From assembly GCF_963921235.1 (NCBI RefSeq), contig NC_086097.1:89468001-89532000 (forward strand): DNA of 64,000 bases, read 5' to 3'. Made by a program: the position numbers and the translations under genes. The stretch is from Mobula hypostoma. Taxonomy: Eukaryota. The first letter of the stretch is position 1, and every line of letters starts with the position of its first letter. This document shows, piece by piece, positions 5,181 through 62,000 of this stretch. The notes below the pieces were generated by a model, which worked only from the letters and a program-made list of their open reading frames with translations, did not search any database and was not told where the DNA came from.

Positions 5181-5207
5181 TAATTATGCAGGAGTCACAA
5201 ACATAGT

Positions 5208-5666
5208 CTGGGTAGCCTCCTACCTGATGGCATGAACGTTGACTTCTTTAACTTCTGTACCTTCGTACCCCATCCCTTATTTATTTATTATTATTTATTT
5301 TTTTCCCTTTTTTTCTCTCTCTTTTTTCTCCCTCTGTCCCTCTCACTATAACACCTTGCCTGCTCTCCATCCCCTGGGCTCCCCTCCCGCTTTCTTTCTC
5401 CCTAGGCTTCCTGTCCCATGATCCTGTCCCTTCTCCAGCCTTGTATCCCTTTTGCCAAAAAACTTTCCAGCTCTTAACTCCATCCCTCCCCCTCCTGTCT
5501 TCTCCTATCATTTCGGATCTCCCTCTCCCCCTCCCACTTTCAAATCTCTTTCTATCTCTTCTTTCAGTTAGTCCTGATGAAGGGTCTCAGCCTGAAAAGT
5601 CGACTGTACCTCTTCCTATAGATGCTGCCTGGCCTGCGGCGTTCACGAGCATTTTTTGTGTGTGTT
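5208..5666 (+). mobile_element. 5'-truncated Penelope-like element tail
   Basis: Colinear with 50780-51230 of the RT/GIY-YIG element. Confidence 0.85.
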
Positions 5667-8627
5667 ACTGAGTATCAGTTCAGTTTTTAAAACAGGGCTT
5701 ATTGGCTGAATGACTGGCAAGATTCTTTGACAGCGGTTCAAGTCAGCACTGAACTTGATAGTACGCTGTTTGATGTTCAAAAGATTTTTAAGTTAGTTAG
5801 TTTGGGCAACCTTGCACCAATAATGTATGGACTTGTCTCCACAGTGTAAATTAGACTGTAGATGGAAGCAGCTCCCAAAAATTGCACCGATTTGCTTGAG
5901 GGAGGATGATGGTGGTTAACATGGACAAGGAAAATGTCATATGGTGCATTAAGTAAGCTGTTCTCATGAGTTAAGAGCTTAAAGCTATCTTTTGTGCTGA
6001 ATGTATCTGACTTTGGGGGGGGGGGGTGATCAAGTGGTCTAAAGAGAGATTCACTCAGCATTTAAGCTATTCTTTGCCAGGCAGAGTTTGATGGGACAGT
6101 GTTGAGGGAGTTTGCTCTATATTTGATCTGTCATGGACCTGACATGGAAGTTTTCAAAGGAACAGTTTCAAATAGGTTTTACTCTACAACTGTCTTTCAA
6201 AAGCTTTATGCTTGCCTAATATAACAGTCTGGAATGGGAATTCTGTGGCGTTACCAATTAGATGTTAAATAATTAAATTGGAAAGGATTATTTTTTTGAC
6301 TATTTAAAGAAAGAATGTTACAGTCGGCAACTCTGCATGGCCGTGTGTTGGCCCCAAATTCTGGTGGTGATGAAGAATCAAGCTCTCCCCCTCATACCCC
6401 AACAAAAGATCCTACCCCAACTGCACTACCAAAACTCTTGATTCTTTTCCCACCTCAACAGGCTGATTTTGGACACCAGAATATGACTCAAGTTGCCCCA
6501 ATTTAGTCTGAAAGAAAAGGGGATTCTGCAGTGTTGTAAAGTGTAGGATGGAGATTGCTAGACCTTTATTTGGATTTGGGCTTTTGGCTTTTATCGCCGT
6601 TGTGTAGACTGGATATGAAGCCCGGCTTTAGAGGTGGAAATTTGATGCCTGATCAACTGCACCACAGAAATTTCCAAATGGGAGCTTCAACACAACAGGC
6701 AATTTGATTGAATCGGTCCATACCAACACTTACCCTAAAAAAAAACAGTGTATCAGTCCTAGAATTTTATCCACCTATCCAATGATACATCATTTTGCTT
6801 CATTGCCATCCCCAATGTCAGTTCTGTATACCCTCTTGGTCCCTGTCTTAAACTTCTGTGTTTAATATTGCACCAGTGGCTCCATTGTTAAAGCCTTGTG
6901 AATAACAGTTTTCTTATATCAATCATGTACCATCCTTTCAGACTTAATATTATCATATTTTGTCTTCTGCATTGTCTGATTTTTTTTTTGGTGGAGAGGG
7001 AGGTGAAAGAAGAGTTTTAATGAATATAAGCATAAAAAACTTAAAATAATCAGCGCAGGCAGTATCTGTGGAGGGAAAGAGTTGATGTTTTAGGTTATAA
7101 TAACTTTTCATTGGAAATATCAGGCCAATGACTTGAAACGTTAACTTTACTTCTTTTACCACAGATGCTGCCTGACATGCTGAGGGTTTCCAGCATTTTC
7201 TCTTTATTTCAAGATTCCAGCATCTTCATTTTTCTTCTGCTCTTTCCTTCACAATGCTTTTCATGTCTTTATTATTGATCTGCATTGTAACCTCTTGATG
7301 GGTTTGACATCCTTCCTGTAGAAAGGAAAAAATACACTCCACGACACTCTTAAGTGATATCTAATTGGGGATTTTAATCCTGCATGTGATTTTAAACACC
7401 TAAATGCATTTGCTTTAATGACCTTATCAGCTTGAGGTAATGCATTTGGCATCCTGTCAGCTTGAGTCCCTCTGCCACAGCACTAAGCTGTCTCGTATAC
7501 ACAGTCACTGCCACTGATTTCTTTTTAATGACTATATGACCTTGTATTTATTGCTACTGAGCACCCACCTACTGCAATTAAGCACACTCACCCATTGCAG
7601 CCTTCCAAGGAAGTAAGAAAAGCTATTTTGCTGATGTTTGTACGCTTTAACATGACCGGCCTAGGCTTTTGTCCAGGACATTGGCTCGCACGGGGTGAAC
7701 ATTACTCTTGGTAATACCAATGTCTGCCCCCGACTACTCTGGAAAAACAATCCTAGCCTTCAAATACTTACTTTCTCCTTGCTATTCACCTTTAAATCTT
7801 GCTTGTTATCTGCTTATTCTATAAACATTGAGCTACACCACATGCTTTTGCAAAATCTTTTAAAATTAAAAGTCATTTTGTGCTGTACTACTCTGCTGTG
7901 GCTTTTTCTCACTATATACGACTAGATAGTATCTTACCTTATCACTCTTTTGCCTTTTGTTGTTCATTACACTTCGTATTTGGATTTCAAACTTTGCTAT
8001 GCTGCTTTAGTGATTCGGATTTTCTTAGTTTGTTCTACTTAAAGTTATTTTTATCATCTACTTTATTTAACACTAGCTCTTCGCCCCCACTTTACTGCCA
8101 CCATCTCAACATTTCCCTCACTTAATTCTTGATTCCTTTATCCTTTTTTCTTACGTTTTCATATCAATTCACTTGCTGATGGATCTTTTAAGTGATTGTG
8201 GATAAACAGAATTAATGGTCAGCTGAAGAATCAAATAAGAGAGAGAAAATTGCAACTGAAGATGCAAAATCAGTACAGGAAATAACATGCAGCATAAACA
8301 CTCAGAGTAAAGCGAGTTTTGCACCAGCCATGTTACTTTTAATGTTGCTGTAATCTTGTTCAGCCGTACATAATTCGCATGTTTGCTTCTAACGGTGCCA
8401 TTAATCTAACCTGTATTTAACAGAACAATCCAATTATTGGGTAGGCTCATCAGGGACACGATTAGACTTGTGGGAAGGGATCTAGGGCTAAGAGACCTGT
8501 GGGCCTGCACTTTTGACTCTGATGCGTGCAGGGGGATGAGTGGAGTGAACTGCATCTTTCCTGTTTCAGGCCAGTCCCCACCAATCACAGCCTGTTGCTC
8601 AACACTATTTATGATGTCTTTTAGCAG

Positions 8628-13620: not shown

Positions 13621-14021
13621 CCAAAATCATCGTCTACATATTTGTACTGGAAATCCATTTGCCAATCCTGGGCTCACTTCACCGAATGATCAAGTTCTTC
13701 TTGTACTTCATAATATGCAATAGTTAAGGGGTTATAGGCTGGTCACTTCTACCTAACACCTCCCAGCTTTTGATGTCATTCTCACTCTCACCTGAATCTA
13801 CTTATCACCTTGCCTCACACCTACCCTCCAGCTTCCTGCGCTGGCCACCTCCCCTCTTTCTTTCAGTCCAGAGGAAGGGTCTCAACTGTTTCCCTCCACG
13901 GATGCTGCCTGATGCACTGAGTTCCTGCAGCCGGATGCTTTGTTGCTCCAGATTCCGGCATCTCCTGGAGATCTGTTTTTGTTGACCTTATTTAACATTG
14001 CCACGTTTTTGTAACCATCAG

Positions 14022-15789
14022 GTCACCCCTGACGTGGAGCCGATGTCCATTCAACAGATTGTCACGGAGGCCTGCCAGTCTGCCCTCGAGGAAATGCAGT
14101 CGGACACCGAGGCTACTCACAGTCCGGAGGGAACCAAGGGAGCAGACGAGGTCCCGGAGGTGACTGATGCAGATCTAGGCGGCCCCGAGCAGGGAACTGT
14201 GGGTTCTGCTGCAGAATGCCCATTCAATGAGGTGGGCGATGAGCCAAAGCACTTCAGCAGCGAAGACTCCTCGGAGGAGGAGCAGGAGCGGGATTCCCAG
14301 AGCATCCTCCCTCCTTCGGTGCTGGGGCAGGCTAGCCTCATTGCAGAGCATTTCCTGAACAGCCCGTCAAGGTGCAACAGCTTGGTGAACGACGACGGCA
14401 GCTCCTATAGTTGTGTGTCGCCAAAGGTGACCAACAGGCAAAGTAGCCTCGAAAGCAGTGACAAAACATCGCGGAACAGGGGCACGCATGATGAATGGCG
14501 GCCAAGTGACGCTTTCTGGGGCAGCAATGGCCAAGAGGAGGGAAGCCTGTCTGAGGAGTCTGTCTTAAAAGGCCAGGAGGAGATGGAATTGGACGTTGAA
14601 CGGAACACTCCTAAGAGAAGGGATTCCACCCTCTCCAGGCAGGACCGGCTGCTCATTGAGAAGATTAAAAGTTACTATGACAATGCAGAACATGAAGACG
14701 CCAATTTTAGCATCAAGAGGAGAGAAAGCCTGACCTACATCCCAGCGGGTCTGGTCAGGAACTCTGTGTCCAAGTTAAATGGTCAAAACAAGGAAGAGGA
14801 TCTGCGGCAGGCCACCTTAAGAAGGCGACTGGCATCTTCCAATGTGGCTGTTCCCCGGAGGAATGACCCTCCGGTCAGGGCTTTGCAGGACCTTCCAAAC
14901 GTGAGCTCCTGCAGAGATGCTCATTTGCCTTTGGAGCCAGTAAGGGCCTTAGAACAACAGCAGCCAGAATCAAATGATCCTTTGGCAGGAAAGCCACCTT
15001 TGGACTTCTCGAAGGAGCCCAGTTCTGGTGAACAGAACCCAGTTACAGAGAGTGAATTCCGATCACCCGTGGACATGATTAAGATCTGGCAAGAGATGGA
15101 AAACATGTCAAATATTGCCACAAAGTCTCCAAAGGGAGCAGAACAGAAACATGACACAGTACAAGGGTTTGAGTCTTTTGAGAATAACTCAGAGAATCCA
15201 AAGAAAGTTGAAGAGAAGGACCCCAAACAATCTCAAACAAAACAACTCAGCAGTGTTAGAAGTAACTTGTGTCAAGATTTCAACGAGCCATTAGTTATTC
15301 TGGAAGATGGTGATTTAAGTGCTACTCCAGAAGTGTCTCCCATAACCTCTCAAGCAAGGCCTACTGGAGAAAGACTAAATGATGCATCAGTGAGTGAGGT
15401 CGGCAACCAAGCCAAAGAATATGTTCCACGTCCTCAAACGTCATTATGCATCCAGAAACGTAAATGCTCTGAAGATGAACGTGCACCGCTGCCAGATTCC
15501 GGTTCCGACCTAACTCAGAATCTGAGTTGTGACCACCGCACTCCAATCACAAGACCACAGGTGGCCCAGGCACAGGGTGAAGAACTGCTGAGAGAGGTGA
15601 CAGAGAAGATGAAGACCAAGGTCTACCAGCTGGCCAGGATATACAGTCAGAGAATTAAGAACAGCAAGCCAGTGGTCAGAAAGAGAGGCAGTCTGCTGGA
15701 GGTGGCACAGGAGAAGGAAGAGGAACGGGGCAGTGAAGTCAGAAAACTGGTAACGGTTCAGGAAGATGAGAAGGAAATAGTTGCTGCGG
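14022..15789 (+). CDS. PLEKHG3: PLEKHG3 large penultimate exon
   Basis: Within the 615-aa ORF; catcag|GTC acceptor, G|gtgggt donor (phase 1); motifs SILPPSVLGQASLIAEHF, DRLLIEKIKSYYDNAE, RRESLTYIPAGLVRNSVS, KVYQLARIYSQRIK match the PLEKHG3 C-terminal region. Confidence 0.92.
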
Positions 15790-15844
15790 GTGGGTACACA
15801 TTTATTTTCCATTCTTATTTTGTGGACTTTCTAAATCAGAATTA

Positions 15845-16945
15845 GGTTTAATATCACTGGCATATGTTGTGAAAGATGTGGCAGCAGTACATTGCAATAC
15901 ATATTTTTAAAAAATATAAATTACAATAAGAAATATATGCAGAGTATATAGTGAGGAATATGGATTGATTCATTCGCAATTCAGAAAACTGATGGTGGAG
16001 GGGAAGAAGCTAAAATGTTGAGCGTGTGTCTTCAGGCTCCCGTACCACCTCCTTGATGGTAGCAATGAGAAGAGGGCATATCCTGGATGAAGGGAGTTCT
16101 CAATGATGAATGCCACCTTTCTGAGGCATTGCCATTTGAAGATGTCCTTCTGCAGCTTTTTCCAATCCTGTGCAGTGTTAGCCCCCCCCATAATAAATTC
16201 GATGCAACCAGTTAGAATGTTCTCCACAGTATATCTGTAGAAATTTGCAAGTCTTTGGTGACATACCAAATCTCATGAAATATAGCTGCTGTCATGTCTT
16301 CTTTGCAAGTGCATCAATGTGTCGGGCCCAAGATAGGTCTTTGGAGATGATGACACCCAGGAACTTGAAACTGCTCACCCTTTCCAGTTCTGATCCCTAG
16401 ATGAGGACTGTTGTGTGTTCTCTTGGGTTCCCCTTCCTGAAGTTCACAATCAATTCCTTGGTCTTACTGACACTGAGTGCAAGGTTGTTATGACTCCACT
16501 CAACCAGCTGATCTGTCACACTCTTGTACACCTCCTTGTCACCATCCGAAATACTGCCGATAATTGTGTTATCAGCAAATTTATAGGCAGCGTTTGAGTT
16601 GTGTCTATCTACACAATCATGGGTGTAGAGAGAGTAAAGCAGGGTGCTAAACACACGTTCTTGAGGTGCGCCGGTGTTAATTGTCAGCGAGGAGCAAATG
16701 TTATTTCTGATCTGCACTGACTATGATCTCCCGATGAGGAAGTTTAGGAACCTGTTGCAGAGGGCCAAGTTTTGGAGGTTGTTGATTAGTACTAAGAGTA
16801 TGATGGAGTTGAATGCTGAGCTGTAATCAATAACCAGCAGCCTCATGTAGAGTATTGCTGTTATCCAGGTGATCAAAGGCCAAGTGAAGACCCAGTGAAA
16901 TTACATCTGCTGTAGAACTATTATGGCGATAGGGCAGTAGGTCCA
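15845..16945 (-). mobile_element. Decayed Rex1/Babar-type LINE 3' part
   Basis: RT peptides NTGAPQ..LYSLYTHDC..KFADNT, SVSKTKELIVNFRK, LANFYRYTVENILTGCI. Confidence 0.8.
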
Positions 16946-18200
16946 GGTCTATACATACATAGCTTAAAATTCATTACAATGAATTTTTTTTGTACCAGTC
17001 AACAAGTTGCTTTTCCAGCATTTCTCATTAACATGTATATCATGTTATTTCAGTTTTCCATAGCCTACTTGTGTAAATCTAGCTGGCTAATCAGTTCTCA
17101 CCACCTTACCTTTAGTAATGCATTACACAGACCAGGAAGCTTGATGTACAGGTAACTGGCTTTGTTAAGCTATTTTGACATGATATCACAGACATTACCT
17201 TTTATGTACATATCCACCATCCTCTACTGAAAACACACTTGCATCCTCCTCCCTGTATTCTGATGAAGCATCAAGGTCCTGGAACATTGAGAACTTCTCT
17301 TTCCACAGATTCCCTCTGACTTGTTAAGACTATCCAGCATCTGCCGATATATTGCTTTTCATTGAAGATGCATGTATACTGTGTTTAAGGTGGAAGGAAA
17401 TACAAGGGCAGAATGTGGATTTTTCAAGGTGGACTATAAGGGAGGTGGAGAATTGGACAGGGTTAGGGATAGAACTCACATGGTCATCTAGAAGCAACCA
17501 CTGTAATAGTGTCAGCTGTAGGAACATAAAGATCTCCAAGAAGTGGAAGGCTGGAGAGGTGCAGAGACATGAACACAAAGGTGAGGATGGTAGGTTGTTG
17601 AGGCAGGTATTGGTGAGCCAGCAATGGACCAGAGACTTAAGAGACATCGCACAGACGTGAGCCCTTTAGTCAGAAATTTTGCCCATCTTTCTATGTCTTG
17701 CCTTTCTAAGTACCTCTTAAATATAGTGATCTTATCTGGCTCCACCACTTCCTCCAGCAATCATTCTACATATCTACCACTATCTGTTTCTAACCCTGTT
17801 TCAGGTTGTGATCCTGCATTAGCACTGGAAAGGGAGATGTTGGAAGGTGAGGGGAAGGGGAGGTGTATCAATTGGCAGATGATGGATGAGACCAAGTGAG
17901 GGGGGGAGAAAGGATAAAAGGGAATGATGTGAGGATCTGGGAAGTGATGGGCAAAAGGCAGAACCAGTAGACCAGGGAATAAAGGGAGGCATGTTACATA
18001 CTAAAGGGAGGTGATGGGCAGATCATGATGGTAGGTGAGGGGAAGAGAAAGGGGTGAGAGGACCACCAGAATGGAGGGAAAATGAAGGTGTGTGTGGAGA
18101 GGGACTGAGGGGAGTTGTTCTGTGTGTTGCTCAAAATTTAGAGCATCCACAGAATCTCTTGTGAATAATTTTTAATTACTTGTTTCTGTTTAACCTCCAG

Positions 18201-19345
18201 CAGATAAGCCAAAGGAATCACCATCTTTGCCTCTCTATGACCAAGTTATTATCCAAGGGCAAGTCCCATTGGCTGCGTTAATGCAAGAACCTGATGCTGA
18301 CTCGCCAAATAAGTATTTGCAAACACTTCTTCCTCCTTCCACCAAGATCACTTCACCCAGACGTACTATTTTCAGTCTAATAACTCCTCCAGTGAGGCCC
18401 CAGTTGAGACCACTGAGCCCTACTGAGGCGGAAACATTTCCATGGCCTGATGTTCGGGAGCTCCGTTCCAAGTATACCTCTATGCATGATCAAGTCACAA
18501 AGGATTCTATACTGAGGGTAGCCAGAACAAACCTCTTCAAGCCACCTGAAAGTTGCTGTGCAAAGTTGGGCCGATTTTCCAAGAGCTTGTCCATGCCTAA
18601 TGGAATGATGGAAGGCAGAATGTCCCATTCTGGTTTGTTGGAAAAAAGAGGCAAATCCAAACCTGGCCTCTGCCCTGCTAGCACAATGGGGAAACGAGCA
18701 GGTTCTGACACCGTGCCCAGGAAAATGTTGCATTCAGATTCCTCCATCCAGTATCTCCTGAAAGAGGCTCCCGGGAGCTCTTCCAATAACCACGCAACAT
18801 GTTCACGGACTACTCCCTTGGACTCTACATGCACTGACCAAAGTTCCAGTTCAGAGTCCAAGTTCTGCCACTCTACCAAATGCCTGGAGGCAACCCACTA
18901 CGTTTCTTCAGAGTTACTGCTAGATGATCAGAAAGTCATAATCATGGAGAAATTGCCATGTGATGGTGATAGTTGGAGTATTCATAGGAAGGAGCAGGTC
19001 GCTAAGGACAACAGCAGTGATGATGAGGGATTTGTCCAGATCAGCTCTCCAACATCCCGAGAGAAAATCTCGATTCGAGCAGTCATGGAAAGGTGCAGGG
19101 CTTACCAAGAATCGGAAGAATATAAATCTAGGCAAGAAGGTGAAGACAAGGACAGGAGACAGGGAATTTCTAACCCAAAGGCCAAACAGCGGAGTTATGG
19201 AGGAGTAGAGAAGCTGACCTCCAGCACTCAGCAACCAGAGCCAAGGAGGGAGATGCGCCAACTTGGCAGTAGGACAGATCTAACCCAGCAAGGCCTGGTG
19301 AAGAACCTGAGGGACAAGTTTCAAAGCTTGACTTCTGCCAGCTAA
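18201..19345 (+). CDS. PLEKHG3: PLEKHG3 last coding exon
   Basis: ctccag acceptor in phase 1 continuing into the 18227-19345 ORF; motifs FPWPDVRELRSKY and terminal QGLVKNLRDKFQSL; TAA at 19343-19345. Confidence 0.92.
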
Positions 19346-38090: not shown

Positions 38091-38404
38091 TCTGAGCTCT
38101 TCAATATTTTGACAGGATTGGAAACCTGATGGAGAAACTGAAACAAATTTAAGAGGTTTAATGGCTTTGGTAGATTGGAGATTGGCAGGAGACACCACAG
38201 AGGGAAAAGCCAATAGATTTTTTTTACAGGAATGGAGAAATTGACACCAAATTTGAAAGAGGGAGGCTTAACATGAGAGGATAGTAACCCATCAACAAAA
38301 CCTTGGTTTGATAGCTTATCTGAAGGACAACACATCCAGCAACACAACACAGCAAAGCACAGGAATATTAGCCTGGATTGTAGTCTGAGTTACCTTAAAA
38401 TCCA

Positions 38405-39311
38405 ATTGTAGGCCGTATCTCGGGTAATGATGAGTTTGAGTACAGAGAGGAAATTAAGAACCTGGTGGCATGGTGCGAAGACAATAATCTATCCCTCAAT
38501 GTCAGCAAGACGAAGGAATTGGTTGTTGACTTCAGAAGGAGTAGCAGACCGCATGACCTAATTTACATCGGTGGTGCCCAAGTGGAACAGGTCAAAAGCT
38601 TTAAGTACCTCCGGGTCAATATCACAAATGACCTGACTTGGCCCAGCCAAGCAGAGCTCACTGCCAAGAAGGCCCACCAGCGCCTTTACTTCCTGACAAA
38701 ACTAAAGAAATTTGGCCTGTCCCCTAAAACCCTTGCTAATTTTTATAGATGCACCGTAGAAAGCATTCTTCTAGGGTGCATCACAACCTGGAATGGAAGT
38801 TGTCCTGTCCAAGACCAAAAGAAGCTGCAGAAGATCGTGAACACGGCGCAGCACATAACACAAACCAATCTTCCATCCGTGGACTCACTTTACACCGCAC
38901 GCTGTCGGAGCAGTGCTGCCAGGATAATCAAGGACACGACCCACCCAGCCAACACACTTTTCGTCCCTCTTCCCTCCGGGAGAAGGCTCAGGAGCTTGAA
39001 GACTCGTACGGCCAGATTTGGGAACAGCTTCTTTCCAACTGTGATAAGACTGCTGAACGGATCCTGACCCGGATCTGGGCCGTACCCTCCAAATACCCGG
39101 ACCTGCCTCTCGGTTTTTTTGCACTACCTTACTTTCCATTTTTCTATTTTCTATTTATGATTTATAATTTAAATTTTTAATGTTTACTATTTTTTACTAT
39201 TTTTAATATTTAATATTTGTAATCCAGGGAGTGGGAAGCGCAGAATCAAATATCGCTGTGATGATTGTACATTCTAGTACCAATTGTTTGGCGACAATAA
39301 AGTATAAAGTA
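38405..39311 (+). mobile_element. Young 5'-truncated Rex1/Babar-type LINE (family B)
   Basis: 200-aa ORF WCEDNNLSLNVSKTKELVVDFRR..NSFFPTVIRLLN; (taaagta)n tail; shorter copy at 54422-54868. Confidence 0.88.
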
Positions 39312-40069: not shown

Positions 40070-43000
40070 ATAGTCATAGTCATACTTTATTGATCCCGGA
40101 GGAAATTGGTTTTCGTTACAGTTGCACCATAAATAAATAAATAGTAATAAAACCATAAATAATTAAATAGTAATATGTAATTATGCCAGGAAATAAGTCC
40201 AGGACCAGCCTACTGGCTCAGCGCGTCTGACCCTCCAAGGGAGGAGTTGTAAAGTTTGATGGCCACTGGCAGGAATGACTTCCTATGACGCTCTGTGTTG
40301 CATCTCGGTGGAATGAGTCTCTGGCTGAATGTACTCCTGTGCCCACCCAGTACATTATGTAGTGGATGGGAGACATTGTCCAAGATGGCATGCAACTTCG
40401 ACAGCATCCTCTTTTCAGACACCACCGTCAGAGAGCTCAGTTCCATCCCCACAACATCACTGGCCTTACGAATGAGTTTGTTGATTCTGTTGGTGTCTGC
40501 TACCCTCAGCCTGCTGCCCCAGCACACAACAGCAAACATGATTGCACTGGCCACCACAGACTTGTAGAACATCCTCAGCATCGTCTGACAGATGTTAAAG
40601 GACCTCAGTCTCCTCAGGAAATAGAGACGGCTCTGACCCTTCTTGTAGACAGCCTCAGTGTTCTTTGACCAGTCCAGTTTATTGTCAACTCATATCCCCA
40701 GGTATTTGTAATCCTCCACCATGTCCACACTGACCCCCTGGATGAAAACAGGGGTCACCGGTGCCTTAGCTCTCCTCAGGTCTACCACCAGTTCCTTAAG
40801 TCTTTTTCACATTAAGCTGCAGATAATTCTGCTCACACCATGTGACAAAGTTTCCTACCGTAGCCCTGTACTCAGCCTCATCTCCCTTGCTGATGCATCC
40901 AACTATGGCAGAGTCATCCGAAAACTTCTGAAGATGACAAGACTCTGTGCAGTAGTTGAAGTCTGAGGTGTAAATGGTGAAGAGAAAGGGAGACAAGACA
41001 GTCCCCTGTGGAGCCCCAGTGCTGCTGATCACTCTGTCGGACACACAGTGTTGCAAGCACATGTACTGTGGTCTGCCAGTCAGGTAATCAAGAATCCATG
41101 ACACCAGGAAAGTATTCACCTGCATCGCTGTCAGCTTCTCCCCCAGCAGAGCAGTGCGGATGGTGTTGAACGCACTGGAGAAGTCAAAAAACATGACCAT
41201 CACAGTGCTCGCTGGCTTTTCCAGGTGGGCGTAGACACGGTTCAGCAGGTAGACGATGACATCCTCAACTCCTAGTCGGGGCTGGTAGGCGAACTGGAGG
41301 GGATCTAAGTGTGGCCTGACCATAGGCCGGAGCAGCTCCAGAACAAGTCTCTCCAAGGTCTTCATGATGTGAGAGGTCAATGCCACCGGTCTGTAGTCAT
41401 TGAGGCCGCTGGGGCGCGGCGTCTTCAGCACAGGGACGAGGCAGGATGTCTTCCACAGCACAGGAACCCTCCGGAGCCTCAGGCTCAGGTTGAATACATG
41501 GCGAAGTACTCCACATAGCTGAGGGGCACAGGCTTTGAGCACCCTAGTACTGACACCATACAGTCCTGCAGCCTTGCTTGGGTTGAGACATTTCAGCTGT
41601 CGTCTCACCTGTTCAGCTGTGAAGCCAACCATGGTGTTTTCGTGTGGGGAAGGGGTATAATCATGAGAGCAAGGTGGGGGACTGTGAGGAGGGATAAGAG
41701 GAGAGAGTGGAATATGTATTGGTTGGGGGCCGACAACAGATGACTCATGTGGGGGATGGGCAGGGGCCACAATGTCAAATCTGTTAAAGAACAGTTGAGT
41801 TTGTTGGCCCTGTCCACACTGCCTTCAGCTCCTCTGTTGCTAGTTTGCCGGAACCCAGTGATGGCCCTCATCCCACTCCAGACCTCTCTCATGTTGTTCT
41901 GCTGGAGTTTCCACTCAAGCCTCCTCCTGTACCTGTCTTTAGCCTCCCTGATCCTGGCTTTCAGGTCCCTCTGTATTGTCGTCAGCTCCTCCCTATTTCC
42001 ATCTCTAAACGCCCTCGTTTTAGCGTTCAGGATGTCCTTAACGTCCTTTGTTACCCATATGGCTTGTTATTTGCATAACAAAGGACAGTTCTTGTCGAAA
42101 CATTGCAGTCCACACAGAAATTGATGTAATCAGTGATGCATTCTGTGAGCCGATCAATATCCTCTCCATGTGGCTCACAGAGTGCCTGCCAGTCTGTCAC
42201 CTCAAAACAACTCTGGAGCGCCTCATAAGCCTCCTCCAACCATTTTCTCACTGTCCTTGAGGTTGCAGGTTTACTCTTCACCAGAGGCACGTAGCAGGGT
42301 TTTAGATGCACCAGGTTGGGATCTGACCTTCCCAGTGGGGGGGAGGGGAGAGGAGCTGTATGCATCCTTAACGTTAGCATACATCAAATCCAGAGTCCTC
42401 TCCCCTCTGGTTGTACAGCTCACATACTGCGTGAAGTTGGGCAGTGTCCTAGCCATGGTAACATGGTTGAAGTCACCCAAGATGGTAATGAGGGCACTCA
42501 GGTGCTGGGTTTGTAATCTGGCTATGACGGTGTAAATGATGTTACACGTCGACGTTGGGTTGGCAGAGGGAGGGATGTACACAACAACCACAATTGCATG
42601 TGAGATTTCCCTTGGCAAATAATATGGCCTAGAGTCCAACAGCAAAAAGTTCAATATCCAGGCTACAAACACGTTCCTTGATCGTAATATGATCAGGATT
42701 GCACCATCTGTTGTTTACCAGAACAGCAAGCCCCTCTCCTTTACCCTTACCACTCTCAGTGCAATTCTGGTCAGCCTGAACGGTCTGGAAGCCCTCTATG
42801 GAAATGTTTTGATCAGGTATGTCCTCGTGCAGCCACGTTTCAGTAAAACACATAACACAGCTCTCCCGAAATGTTTTCTGACTCCTGACAAGCGCCGTTA
42901 ACTCGTCCATTTTATTACCCAGCGATCTTACGTTGCCCATAATGAGAGGGGAGACACGGCTTATACCTTCTCTTCTCCATAAGCCTCTGTTGTCTCGACC

Positions 43001-54868: not shown

Positions 54869-54924
54869 CAATCACTTAAAATTAAGGATATAAATGTGGT
54901 GATGCCTTTGCACCTCTGAACCAT

Positions 54925-56124
54925 GTCTACCTGCTGAACCGTGTCTACGCCCACCTGGACAAGCCAGCGAGCACTGTGAGGGTCATGTTTTTTGACTTCT
55001 CCAGTGCGTTCAACACCATCCGCCCTGCTCTGCTGGGGGAGAAGCTGACAGTGATGCAGGTGGATGCTTCCCTGGTATCATGGATTCTTGATTACCTGAT
55101 TGGCAGACCACAGTACGTGTGCTTGCAACACTGTGTGTCTGACAGAGTGATCAGCAGCACTGGGGCTCCACAGGGGACTGTCTTGTCTCCCTTTCTCTTC
55201 ACCATTTACACCTCAGACTTCAACTACTGCACAGAGTCTTGTCATCTTCAGAAGTTTTCGGATGACTCTGCCATAGTTGGATGTATCAGCAAGGGAGATG
55301 AGGTCGAGTACAGGGCTACTGTAGGAAACTTTATCACATGGTGTGAGCAGAATTATCTGCAGCTTAACGTGAAAAAGACTTAAGGAACTGGTGGTAGACC
55401 TGAGGAGAGCTAAGGTACCGGTGACCCCTGTTTTCATCCAGGGGGTCAGTGTGGGCATGGTGGAGGATTACAAATACCTGGGGATATGAATTGACAATAA
55501 ACTGGACTGGTCAAAGAACACTGAGGCTGTCTACAAGAAGGGTCAGAGCCGTCTCTATTTCCTGAGGAGACTGAGGTCCTTTAACATCTGCCGGACAATG
55601 CTGAGGATGTTCTACGAGTCTGTGATGGCCAGTGCTATCATTTTTGCTGTTGTGTGCTGGGGTAGCAGGCTGAGGGTGGCAGACACCAACAGAATCAACA
55701 AACTCATTCGTAAGGCCAGTGATGTTGTGGGGATGGAACTGGACTCTCTCACGGTGGTGTCTGAAAAGAGGATGCTGTCTAAGTTGCATGCCATTTTGGT
55801 CAATGTCTCCCATCCACTACATAATGTACTGGGTGGGCACAGGAGTACATTCAGCCAGAGACTCATTCCACCGAGATGCAGCACAGAGCGTCATAGGAAG
55901 TCATTCCTGCCTGTGGCCATCAAACTTTACAACTCCTCCCTTGGAGGGTCAGACATCCTGAACCAATAGGCTGGTCCTGGACTTATTTCATAATTTACTG
56001 GCATAATTTACATATTACTATTTAACTATTTATGGTTCTATTACTATTTATTATTTATGGTGCAACTGTAACGAAAACCAATTTCCCCTTGGTATCAATA
56101 AAGTATGACCATGACTATGACTAT
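54925..56124 (+). mobile_element. 5'-truncated Rex1/Babar family A copy
   Basis: ORFs 54976-55383 and 55598-55969 nearly identical to those of the 40070-43265 element; atgact tail repeats. Confidence 0.92.
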
Positions 56125-56186
56125 AAAGGGCAGTTGAAAGCCATAAATAAAAAGTCTATTCAGTCACTGTGGCAACAAAGTTAGTA

Positions 56187-56965
56187 CAGGCCAACCTTCT
56201 ATAATCCGGCACCATTGGGACCTGAGAAGTGCCGGATTAGTGAAAATGCCAAATTACAGACGGATCACATTAAGCAATAGCTAACCACCTCATCATACCT
56301 TTAAAATATCATGTAAATCAATACAAGTTAGATAATAATGAAACAGAAATATAAATGAGTAGCAAGTGAAGTTTTACTAAAGTAATATACTGTACAGGCA
56401 CAGATAAAATAAAGGATACAGGTAAATGTACAGGAATTAACTTATACAAAACAGTTGAGCACTTCCGCTTCAAAGTGAGACATTTAATATACCTTCAGTC
56501 GCAGTTACTGAGGGAATCCATGTTAGTTTCTTTTCCTCCACTTAGTAATATGCTTAAATTCAGCAGGTCACCATGTCTGATCTGAGGTCGTAGGCAGAAG
56601 AGAACGGAGCGCCGGCCGGGCAATGCCAGAGGGCAGTGTGCGACTGCTGGCAGGTGGGCGAGAGGGCGGACTGACCCAGTGCGCGCCAGCTCCCCCGCCG
56701 TTGGCAGGTGAGACGGGCGGGTGCCGGGCGGCCGCGCCTCACGCAAATGATATTAATAAATGCAGGAAAACAAGCAGGAATCGCCTGTCTGCTTACAAGA
56801 GCGTGCCAACACGTGAACAGATCTAGTGCAAGCAAAACAATGTGCAGCAGATTGGTACGGTGGCCCAGGAAATTTGAAATTACAGTTGCACAGAAAATTT
56901 GAAATCAGTGCCGGATTACCGAAGGAACCGGATTACAGGTAGTCGGATTAGTGAAGGTCGACCTG
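56187..56965. mobile_element. Non-autonomous Tc1/mariner-superfamily (Tigger/pogo-like) TIR element
   Basis: TA TSD (56185-56186, 56966-56967); TIRs CAGGCCAACCTTCTATAATCCG / CAGGTCGACCTTCACTAATCCG; repeated subterminal CCGGATTA motifs. Confidence 0.85.
56493..56742 (-). pseudogene. rDNA fragment: 5' end of 28S rRNA (56590-56493) preceded by a GC-rich presumed ITS2 3' end
   Basis: Minus strand reads CGACCTCAGATCAGAC..GCTGAATTTAAGCATATTACTAAG..GAGGAAAAGAAACTAAC..GGATTCCCTCAGTAAC, the conserved 28S start; CpG-type decay. Confidence 0.92.
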
Positions 56966-57159
56966 TATAAGGAAAAGCAAGCACGCCATTTATATAAAAT
57001 TCAGAGGATGGTGGGAACTCAACTGGAAGATGAGTATAAAGGGAGTGAAGAAGTTATACTTACATGTTTACGTATTTGCAATACTAGGTTAAATAACTCC
57101 TTGTTCAGAATTAATCTGCATGTTACGGGCATTTGTAGCGAGTGCAAGAAATAGTGCAG

Positions 57160-59098: not shown

Positions 59099-62000
59099 CA
59101 AACACACAAAATGCTGGAGGAACTCAGCAGGCCAGGCAGCATCTATGGCAGGGGTGTCAAACTCATTTTAGGTCACAGGCTGGATTCGACAAAATGTGAC
59201 TTCATGCGGGCCGGGTCAGTTGTGCACACGCACGTACTTCCACAGCTTTCGTTGCCTTCGTATTTTCAACCTGCTCTCATGTGTCTCAGTCTCTGCTATA
59301 ACTACAAAGGGCTTCACTTTACGAATTTTGTTTCTTATGAAGAAGATTGCCCAGCAAGCATTACTTTTATGATTGGTATTAACTTACAGTCGTAGACTAC
59401 AAGAAAGTTGTGATGAGAGAGAGAAAAAACGATGCTATTTTGGCTAAGATTGATTTGGGAGCCACACCCTTTCCATTAGTGAACCATTTGAAATCGAACA
59501 TTGGCAGATACAAATGTAGACCTAACGAAACAAATTGTAAATGTAGGCTACACAACTGCACCTAATTTTTATTAGCCTGCTTCCAGCAGTCAAGCTCAGA
59601 CAATGAACACAGTTAGCCTCTAATTTTTATTGAAGTGATCACATTTACAATAATGGAATAGTCAGAAAATGAATGAATCACAATATTATGACACTCAATA
59701 TTTCATAATGCATTTTGCTTACATGTCGCAGTGCATCGAACAGTGTCACTCATTTTTCACTTGCTGCTTCCAGACTCCTGACATCTCTTGGCTTTAACCA
59801 GCCTGTCAACACCAGGGACCAGTTTCTGGGCAGTTGTAATTTTCATAATATCATTTAGGTGTCTGTGTGTCAGTTGCGAGCACAGTTTGGATTTGTTAAT
59901 GTTCGTTATGGAGAACACCTGCTCACAAAGATATGTTGTCCCGAACATGCAAAGGATCTTTGAGATAACGTCTGTCATCTTGGTTTACGTCGGTCCCAGG
60001 TATTGATAGAATGAGTCCAGACCCACAGTCTCAAATTTATATTTCAAGGCTGAGATACACTGAATTTCAATTAGTTCCATTTGGAGTTCCTCCAGCACAT
60101 CTGATGCTGTGTTGACGGCAAATGGTGAGCAAAATAGTGAGAATTCCTTCTCGAGCTGAGTGAAGACTTGGAACCAATTCTGAAACTCACTTTTCTGCCA
60201 TGATATTTTGTCCTTGTTATTGTCCACGTTGTCATTATTCCCATGAGCGACACGCACAGACTGCAAAGAGGGGAAATGAGCTGGGTTTCTCCAGGATAGT
60301 TGCATCTCCCACAGGCCTAATTGAATTTGAAAGGCACGAATGCTGTCGTAGTATTCCGTAACGAGTTTGTTGCGGCCTTGCATGTTAACATTAAGCACAC
60401 TTAAGTACTCTGTTATATCCACCAAAAACGCAAGATCATGAAGCCTGTCTTGGTCATCCAACTCTGCCACTGGCTTCCCTTTCTCATTCATGAATAGTCC
60501 AATTTCCGCACGTAATTGAAAAAAATGTTTGACCACAACCCCTCTGCTCAACCAGCGGACTTCAGTGTGGTAGGGTAGGCCGCGTCCAATATTACTTTCG
60601 GACAAAAGAGTGTCAAATTGCCGATGGTTAAGTCACTTGACTCTAATAAAATTAACCGTTTTGATTACTACATCCATGACATTGTCCATTTTCAGGCTCC
60701 CGCTACATAACGCCTCTTGGTGTATAATATTCCAGAATTCCTGCTCTAGATTCTCTGTCTGAACTTTCTCTCTGAGTTTCACAACAGCACCTGCCTTTTC
60801 CCCACCATGGACGGTGCGCCATCTGTTGCCACGCTGACAGCGTGACTCCAGTCAACCCTCAGTCTGTCCAGGGCCTCGACGAGGCTGGAGAAAACATCGT
60901 TCGCCGTTGTGGTGTTTATCATGGGCACCGTCTCCACAAACTCCTCGGTGACGGTCAAAGATGCATCAACACCACGAATAAATATTCCCAATTGAGCTAC
61001 ATCAGTCACGTCGGTGCTCTCATCAATTGCAATAGAGAAGGCAATAAATGACTTCACTTTGTCTTTTAGTTGACTGTTCAAATCTCCTGCAAGGTCCCTG
61101 ATTCTCTCTGCCACAGTATTTCTTGACAAGCTGATATTACCAAAAGTCTGTCTCTTCTCAGGGCACACCAGCTCAGCCACTGTCAGCATGCATGCTTTGA
61201 TGAGATCCCCCTCTGAGTATGGCTTCGACGCAGCAGCTATTTTGTTGGCAATAATATAGCTGGCCTTGACTGCTCCATCATGAGTCTCTCGACTTTTGGT
61301 GAACACTGACTGCTGTTTTTTCAGAGCTGCTTCAAGCTCGTTTACCTTTTGCGTTCTGAGTCATCCTGCGTACGTGTGACGTCTCATAGTGTCGTTTGAT
61401 ATTGTACTCTTTTGCCACAGCCACCTGTTGCGAGCATATCAGACACACAGGTTTGCCATTGACCTCACAGAAGAAAATACGATCTTTCCAATTATCATTG
61501 AATATCCGACCTTCAATGTTAACTTTTCTTTTCTTGGAAAGCATTTGAACCACAGCAGCAAACAGTCTCAGCCTTGCTACAGGTGTTACTTACCTGAGTA
61601 CTCTGTGTGTTTATTCTGTGTCTGACGACGTAAGTGGGGCCCTAGTGGTCTTCAGTACAGGGTGGTAGGTGCTTGTGCACAGCCGGTGGTTAACTGCCGC
61701 CTATTGTTTTCTAAGTACACACAACAAGCTGCCAGCGCAGCAGGCGGCCCAGACAGCGGTGGGAGAGAGAGCGGCTGCCGTACAGATACATAATAAATGG
61801 TCATGAATATACTTTTTTTTCCCCCAAAACATCCCGCGGGCCGGATTGGACCCCTTCGTGGGCCGGTAGTTTGGCACCCCTGATCTATGGAAAAAAGTAC
61901 AGTTGACGTTTCGGACCAAAACCCCTCAGCAGAACTGGAGAAAAAAAGCTGGGAGGTAGATTTAAAAGGTGGGAGGAGGGAAGAGAGGAAAACACAAGGT

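What the first reader, a model, noticed from the sequence alone, without database searches (positions are those of the whole stretch)
56185..56967. DNA-transposon MITE carrying a captured rDNA ITS2-28S junction
Seen: a 779-bp TA-flanked TIR element with no ORF. Its AT-rich body switches abruptly to ~98 nt of the 28S 5' end plus ~150 nt of GC-rich upstream sequence, with no polyA tail or TSD seen around the insert. Inference: the spacer implies an rDNA or pre-rRNA template, captured by gap repair (Pack-type cargo). If multi-copy, the family disperses a pre-rRNA processing site genome-wide, may come from or target rDNA arrays, and could confound ITS2/28S PCR assays. A foreign-species ITS2 would indicate horizontal transfer.
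Basis: partly seen in the sequence, partly recalled or inferred. Interest (0 to 1): 0.72.

Follow-up and report, generated by a model that had tools for sequence, protein, structure and literature searches.

The report
Transposon family carrying ribosomal DNA fragment
A small non-coding jumping gene of a probable ray picked up a 255-base piece of the host's own ribosomal DNA long ago and has since copied it to many places in the genomes of at least three related species, most likely as a harmless passenger that preserves an old version of a fast-changing ribosomal spacer.

Summary
56187-56965 is a 779-bp non-coding element with 22-bp terminal inverted repeats between two TA dinucleotides. Inside it, on the minus strand, lie about 100 nt of the 28S 5' end (Rfam, E 1e-12) and 153 nt of adjoining ITS2. 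Contigs of four public runs (three coded organisms) show that it is a dispersed family: both ends have many different flanks, empty sites fit a 2-bp duplication, and 17 of the 32 longest listed contig pieces join the ITS2 piece to the element's right body. So the cargo is not a one-off. It matches what appears to be the hosts' own rDNA, which argues against horizontal transfer, and it is decaying at CpG sites. A cargo-free 155-bp form made of the two ends is far more abundant in two of the three organisms. I found no sign of rDNA targeting, and the piece is probably not a working processing site. Best reading: a Tigger/pogo-like MITE that captured host rDNA once and spread it passively. Closest precedent: Daphnia Pokey, which carries IGS and ITS2 pieces. 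I found no vertebrate case in ten literature searches; repeat libraries could not be searched.

The parts
56185..56186 (.). left TA, target-site duplication
   Evidence: unoccupied copies of the surrounding repeat are shorter by exactly the element plus one dinucleotide (tables 5, 5c, 7)
56187..56208 (+). left terminal inverted repeat
   Evidence: 18 of 22 identical to the right one; holds the TAATCCG core seen in Tigger TIRs
56187..56276 (+). left end, shared with the short 155-bp family member; subterminal CGGATTA-type motifs at 56233 and 56261
   Evidence: joint 56276 to 56903 in 6 contigs of X1, 1 of X5, 1 of X15, 0 of X9; motifs
56277..56489 (.). AT-rich left body (GC 0.29), origin unknown
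   Evidence: covered in all four runs; 6 contigs of X9 run from it into the 28S piece (table 7, loose end at 56471)
56490..56590 (-). captured 28S rRNA 5' end, about positions 1-100; left break uncertain by several bases
   Evidence: Rfam RF02543, 56490-56567, 57.8 bits, E 1.2e-12
56591..56744 (-). captured 3' end of ITS2 (GC 0.75)
   Evidence: directly adjoins 28S position 1; one contig each in X5 and X15 aligns to 56744 and goes on with the same other letters (table 7); very deep contigs lie here (tables 3, 5)
56745..56902 (.). right body, origin unknown
   Evidence: 17 of 32 listed pieces bridge 56744 with 31 or more letters on each side
56903..56965 (+). right end, shared with the short form; three CGGATTA motifs (56912, 56929, 56944); right TIR 56944-56965
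56966..56967 (.). right TA, target-site duplication
   Evidence: loose ends at 56967-68 in 140 contigs of X1 and 101 of X5, consensus agreement about 0.4
56146..57153 (.). older unclassified dispersed repeat, interrupted by the element (56146-56184 and 56968-57153; outer limits approximate)
   Evidence: joints 56182 to 56967 in 6, 3, 1 and 1 contigs of X1, X5, X9, X15; up to 93 contigs per position in the right part

Best explanation
A non-autonomous cut-and-paste element (MITE) with Tigger/pogo-like ends. Once, in an ancestor of organisms A, B and C, one copy took up about 255 bp of the host's own 45S rDNA across the ITS2-28S border. That copy kept its ends, so a transposase supplied in trans copied it to TA sites around the genome, roughly on the order of a hundred to several hundred times. 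The cargo is a passenger: it decays by CpG mutation and does not follow later changes of the rDNA. A 155-bp form that lacks the whole 626-bp interior later multiplied much more in A and B. Shown: structure, 2-bp duplication, dispersal, cargo joined to the element in many distinct contigs of three organisms. Inferred: that the deep contigs are the rDNA unit, single origin, order of events, neutrality (together about 0.85). Inferred with least support: that the capture was DNA-templated, a template switch onto rDNA during repair of an excision gap (about 60-70 in 100 against an RNA template).
For: Unlike flanks at both exact ends; empty sites that restore the surrounding repeat to the base. 17 of 32 listed pieces bridge the ITS2/right-body junction: 6 of 8 in X1, 6 of 8 in X5, 3 of 8 in X9, 2 of 8 in X15, with 7.5-18% other letters. 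X15 record 13 runs from ITS2 to the right TA and then into another flank; X5 record 18 runs from 28S through ITS2 into the right body. 17 of 29 listed differences inside the element, 10 of 13 inside the cargo, are CpG decay in the window's copy. At 56674 the deep contigs of X5 and X15 read G while most low-depth contigs read like the window; at 56622 the reverse split is seen; a single X9 contig leaves at 56629 while other X9 contigs keep the cargo. No tail or duplication around the insert. Precedents: Pokey took up IGS, ITS2 and other host DNA (PMC3849761); Pack-Mariner families have members with and without an internal host piece (PMC8903248).
Against: No listed piece spans the whole element; 9,801 pieces, 95 joints and 922 loose ends were not shown. 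The left junction has less support than the right (a 6-contig loose end and one piece reaching 8 letters into 28S). Depth over ITS2 is several times lower than over the bodies (ratios about 100-240 against 300-950), so many long copies may lack or have lost the cargo. Summed contig depth is not a copy number. No autonomous partner was found, and 4 chondrichthyan Tigger TIRs seen in PMC9219625's supplement differ from these ends. Nothing here separates a DNA from an RNA template.
Confidence: 0.6

Rival explanations
1. Same family and same spread, but the founding insert was copied from RNA: a 32S-type pre-rRNA that still held ITS2 was reverse-transcribed by a LINE enzyme and patched into a break inside a MITE copy.
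For: The piece lies wholly in the transcribed unit and spans a border present only in precursor RNA or DNA; LINE reverse transcriptase remnants surround the locus; tail-less retrocopies of rRNA exist in mammals, though rare for 28S (10 of 2,402; PMC5322556); an earlier unchecked note reads a spliced cDNA patch in a hAT copy of this genome.
Against: No tail and no duplication around the insert, whereas the tail-less retrocopies of PMC5322556 were selected for flanking duplications; nucleolar RNAs were under-represented there.
Confidence: 0.25
2. The cargo is kept because it does something: it helps the element (an rDNA-like signal that eases silencing) or it yields antisense small RNAs that act on pre-rRNA.
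For: The cargo-bearing form is present in all three organisms; zebrafish Piwil1 binds 45S pre-rRNA and represses rDNA (PMC12289311).
Against: CpG decay throughout the cargo; internal deletions through it (joints 56443 to 56493, 56619 to 56696); the cargo-free short form is much more abundant in A and B; the sense strand folds no better than shuffles (z -1.18).
Confidence: 0.06
3. A Pokey-like family that lives in or targets the rDNA array and took its neighbour's DNA there.
For: Pokey shows that rDNA-resident DNA transposons gain ITS2 and IGS pieces, and one mPok sat in ITS2.
Against: Listed flanks are varied and AT-rich; the deep contigs leave at 56744 without TIR letters; the cargo differs from the deep contigs at shared sites, unlike Pokey's concerted repeats.
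Confidence: 0.04
4. A one-off rDNA fragment in this copy; the bridging contigs come from duplications of one locus.
For: No contig spans the whole element with its flanks.
Against: 17 bridging pieces in three organisms with differing numbers of other letters; up to 85 contigs at one ITS2 position; one piece exits at the right TA into a different flank.
Confidence: 0.03
5. The element came in by horizontal transfer with a foreign ITS2.
For: An earlier unchecked note reports a horizontally moved Tc1 in this genome; the ends resemble arthropod Tigger TIR cores.
Against: The ITS2 piece aligns to very deep contigs of organisms A and B themselves, and both continue alike. Transfer of the parent transposon before the capture stays open.
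Confidence: 0.02

Closest known systems
Pokey and mPok of Daphnia (piggyBac superfamily; PMC3849761, passages read)
   Same: A TIR DNA transposon that carries rDNA spacer DNA internally, including a 48-bp ITS2 piece; has MITE derivatives.
   Different: Pokey makes TTAA duplications, targets one 28S site, carries the rDNA pieces in autonomous copies only, and these evolve in concert with rDNA. Here: TA duplication, no coding part, dispersed, a single continuous ITS2-28S block, drifting from present rDNA.
Pack-TYPE elements, above all Pack-Mariner of rice (PMC8903248, passages read)
   Same: Non-autonomous TIR elements whose families split into members with and without an internal piece of host DNA of 60-280 bp.
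   Different: Described in plants and defined by captured protein-coding DNA; here an animal and non-coding rDNA.
Tigger family of pogo transposons (PMC9219625, passages and supplement rows read)
   Same: TA duplication, short TIR beginning CAG, TAATCCG core at nearly the same distance from the end as in 11 shown Tigger rows.
   Different: Those 11 rows are all insects and mostly begin CAGT, not CAGG; the 4 chondrichthyan rows seen have other TIRs; no transposase here to place it.
SINE28 of mammals (PMC4994717, abstract read)
   Same: A dispersed mobile repeat that holds 28S sequence and can be taken for rDNA.
   Different: SINE28 is a retroelement from the 3' end of 28S, transcribed by polymerase III; this is a DNA element with the 5' end plus ITS2.

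Membership tests
MITE (non-autonomous TIR element) | terminal inverted repeats | tested here: met
   18 of 22; ends confirmed by flank changes
MITE (non-autonomous TIR element) | target-site duplication | tested here: met
   TA on both sides; empty sites shorter by the element plus 2 bp
MITE (non-autonomous TIR element) | short and without transposase | tested here: met
   779 bp; 0 of 10 frames tested hit Pfam
MITE (non-autonomous TIR element) | many dispersed copies | tested here: met
   51 contigs with unlike flanks at the left end and 140 at the right end in X1; similar in X5, X9, X15
Tigger/pogo | TA duplication and TIR of 8-33 bp | tested here: met
Tigger/pogo | TIR sequence like a known Tigger | tested here: inconclusive
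   CAG start and TAATCCG core shared with insect rows; no match to 4 chondrichthyan rows
Tigger/pogo | pogo-type transposase in an autonomous partner with the same ends | not testable with these tools
   no genome held
Pack-TYPE | internal host chromosomal DNA carried by several family members | tested here: met
Pack-TYPE | cargo is protein-coding gene DNA | tested here: not met
   cargo is rDNA; works like a Pack element but is not filed as one
Pokey/mPok | TTAA duplication, piggyBac type | tested here: not met
   TA duplication
Pokey/mPok | insertion at a fixed rDNA site | tested here: inconclusive
   listed flanks are varied and this copy is outside rDNA, but most loose ends were not shown
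Pokey/mPok | rDNA piece evolves in concert with the array | tested here: not met
   shared differences from the deep contigs at 56622 and 56674, and divergence at 56629-56650
SINE28 | [quoted passage not shown] | tested here: not met
   model positions 24-103 of 3401; no tail or duplication at the insert

The most novel reading that the evidence does not exclude
Hundreds of dispersed copies of an ITS2-28S junction inside a transposon feed germ-line piRNA or antisense small-RNA pathways with guides that match the host's own pre-rRNA, so that transposon defence reaches the nucleolus and tunes rDNA output; the later success of the cargo-free short form would then be an escape from that conflict.
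Probability: 0.06. Interest if true: 0.8.

Novelty: new variant of a known kind. Interest (0 to 1): 0.45.

Why it matters
A 2024 review lists Pokey as the only DNA transposon known to carry rDNA, and SINE28 as the only element with 28S sequence (PMC10946416, section read). This would add a vertebrate DNA-transposon family that carries a piece of the 45S transcribed unit. Many independently decaying copies give a fossil of an ancestral ITS2 end, useful for dating the capture and for measuring how fast rDNA spacers turn over under concerted evolution. In practice the copies can give false 28S hits in annotation, in read-based rDNA counts and perhaps in FISH. No function is shown.

Tried and rejected
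No genome is held for this window, so copies could not be counted directly. No second copy in the 64-kb window. Exact-pattern scans found nothing: metagenome contigs 0 and 0, viral contigs 0, prokaryote genomes 0. No RNA holder is listed on record; X15 is only guessed to be RNA, so its low-depth element contigs are not used as evidence of expression. Earlier findings: nothing by sequence, words, near or relatives. A 24-nt inverted likeness between the 28S piece and 56750-56773 scored p about 0.001 in a pairwise shuffle (one of four tests, pair noticed beforehand) but p 0.35 when the whole interior was shuffled: left unresolved, not used. Folding of the cargo: 23 of 200 shuffles as good. PCR interference: PMC3322161 names the shark ITS2 primers but the passages give no letters; a literature search for a recalled primer gave two unrelated insect papers; the cargo has no 5.8S site, so a product from the usual 5.8S/28S pair is not expected (inference). 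The Atlas search of a nearby long exon gave no usable hit.

Full report
Observation. The sequence shows a 779-bp element at 56187-56965 between two TA dinucleotides. Its ends are inverted repeats, 18 of 22 identical, with further CGGATTA-type motifs at 56233, 56261, 56912, 56929 and 56944. By itself this TIR is not beyond chance in the window (E 0.78). The 28S match is firm: Rfam RF02543 at 56490-56567, minus strand, model 24-103, 57.8 bits, E 1.2e-12, although the whole-window scan with fast filters listed nothing. Position 1 of 28S then falls near 56590, and the 153 nt beyond it have GC 0.75 against 0.29 and 0.41 in the two bodies. Ten of the 18 stop-to-stop frames of 30 aa or more were scanned; none hit Pfam. 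There is no tail and no duplication around the insert.

Setting. The window is rich in LINE remnants: 7 of 24 frames scanned hit RVT_1 or ALKBH8_N, one set ending just left of the element. Earlier, unchecked notes on this genome call it a cartilaginous fish, one a devil ray; I did not test that. No genome is held and the window has no second copy.

Other copies. Twenty of 24 listed runs hold part of the stretch, best share 0.50. I laid contigs of 4 of them at 80% likeness: X1 and X15 (organism A), X5 (B), X9 (C). X1 may be the source of the window; B and C are separate studies. Contigs leave the stretch with unlike flanks (agreement 0.4-0.5) at 56185 (51 in X1, 9 in X15) and at 56962-68 (140 in X1, 126 in X5, 34 in X9, 30 in X15). 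The flank is itself a repeat: joints from 56182 to 56967 occur in 6, 3, 1 and 1 contigs, and 35 contigs in each of X1, X5 and X9 carry the left flank directly before 56967. Their length equals the window's flanks with one TA, so the element made a 2-bp duplication.

The cargo belongs to the family. Of the 32 listed pieces (the longest of 9,833), 17 bridge the ITS2/right-body junction at 56744 with 31 or more letters on each side: 6 of 8 in X1, 6 of 8 in X5, 3 of 8 in X9, 2 of 8 in X15, with 7.5-18% other letters. X1 record 8 and X15 record 14 look like the same locus. X5 record 18 runs from 28S through ITS2 into the right body; X15 record 13 runs from ITS2 to the right TA and then into another flank. 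Up to 85 contigs show the same other letter at one ITS2 position. The left junction is less well shown: 6 contigs of X9 are clipped at 56471 and their loose letters go on into the 28S piece. Against completeness: no listed piece spans the whole element, and 95 joints and 922 loose ends were not shown.

The ITS2 is the hosts' own. One contig in X5 and one in X15 align up to 56744 and go on with the same GC-rich letters, not the element's. In this part X15 has a contig of depth 838 where element pieces have 5-14, and X5 has about 9,000 where pieces have about 49 (tables 3, 5, 8). I read these as the rDNA unit; that is an inference, since table 7 gives no depth. The cargo has drifted from them: at 56674 the deep contigs read G and most low-depth contigs read as the window; at 56622 the many low-depth contigs read G and the deep ones of X5 and X15 do not; the X15 deep contig differs over 56634-56649; one X9 contig leaves at 56629 into a four-base repeat while other X9 contigs keep the cargo. 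Of 29 listed differences inside the element (40 rows shown, 197 not), 17 are CpG decay in the window's copy, 10 of 13 in the cargo.

A short form. A joint from 56276 to 56903 occurs in X1, X5 and X15 but not X9, giving an element of about 155 bp made of the two ends. Dividing summed depth by the median depth of listed pieces gives 5,200-8,500 at the ends in A and B but 770-1,140 in C; 300-950 over the bodies; 190-580 at 56574 in 28S; 100-240 in ITS2. The tool warns that such depth is no copy number, so these are orders of magnitude only. They suggest that the long form is shared by all three organisms and that the short form expanded in A and B. The lower figure over ITS2 may reflect faster decay and loss in assembly, or long copies without cargo; no joint that skips only the cargo is among the 15 shown.

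Mechanism. Shown: cut-and-paste anatomy, TA duplication, dispersal, cargo joined to the element in three organisms. Inferred: one capture in a common ancestor, then passive spread by a transposase in trans. For the capture I favour a template switch onto rDNA during repair of an excision gap, because there is no tail or duplication; a cDNA of pre-rRNA is the main rival (0.25). Nothing points to rDNA targeting.

Known relatives. Tigger elements have TA duplications and 8-33-bp TIRs (PMC9219625, passages). Eleven of 23 supplement hits to TAATCCG were shown, all insect TIRs with a CAG start (one CAC) and that core; four chondrichthyan rows have other TIRs. So the ends are Tigger-like, membership untested. 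Skates and rays are rich in Tc1/mariner elements (PMC12361510, passages). Pokey carries 200-bp IGS and 48-bp ITS2 pieces, kept in step with rDNA, but is a TTAA element that targets 28S (PMC3849761, passages). The review table of rDNA inside transposons lists Pokey as its only DNA transposon and SINE28 as its only 28S case (PMC10946416, section 11 and passages). SINE28 comes from the 3' end (PMC4994717, abstract). Pack-Mariner families show the same with-and-without pattern for coding cargo in plants (PMC8903248, passages). PMC10886601 and PMC10994358 (passages) added nothing. Ten searches (listings only, except the papers named) showed no vertebrate DNA transposon with an ITS2-28S piece. The library lacks most subscription journals, and Repbase and Dfam could not be searched, so the family may already sit in a repeat library.

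Verdict. Real, multi-copy and shared among related species; a new variant of a known kind, host-DNA capture by a non-autonomous TIR element, with unusual cargo. Probably neutral. Its value lies in the fossil ITS2 and in false rDNA signals. The bold reading, that the copies supply small RNAs against pre-rRNA, has a foothold in zebrafish Piwil1 acting on rDNA (PMC12289311, abstract start and passages) but no evidence here. Interest 0.45.

Noticed in passing
window 56750-56773 and 56528-56551: A 24-nt stretch of the right body resembles the 28S piece in the opposite orientation (20 of 24). Pairwise shuffle p about 0.001, whole-interior shuffle p 0.35. If real it could be a trace of fold-back during capture.
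   Followed up: partly
window 56187-56276 joined to 56903-56965: A 155-bp form made of the two ends is seen in organisms A and B but not C, and end depth is about 7 times higher in A and B: a lineage-specific burst.
   Followed up: partly
window 56146-56184 and 56968-57153: The element sits in an older unclassified repeat with at least two forms (joints to 56967 and to 56987). Its usual letters at the site are not TA; this copy had changed to TA before the insertion.
   Followed up: partly
window 54886-56120, 40070-41824, 38399-39067: LINE remnants with RVT_1 and/or ALKBH8_N hits; the 3' ends at 56001-56118 and 40070-40186 are 92% alike. They look like Rex1/Babar-type LINEs (name recalled).
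   Followed up: no
window 13986-15845 and 18194-19345: Two long open frames (619 and 383 aa) without Pfam hits look like large low-complexity exons of a host gene; they recall PLEKHG-type RhoGEFs (recalled; the Atlas search of the second gave no support).
   Followed up: partly
window 59985-61360, minus strand: Two frames read like pieces of a decayed hAT-type transposase (recalled likeness; no Pfam hit at E 0.001).
   Followed up: no
run X9, loose end at 56629: One contig of organism C leaves the ITS2 piece into a four-base tandem repeat, probably a microsatellite that grew in that species' ITS2 after the capture.
   Followed up: no
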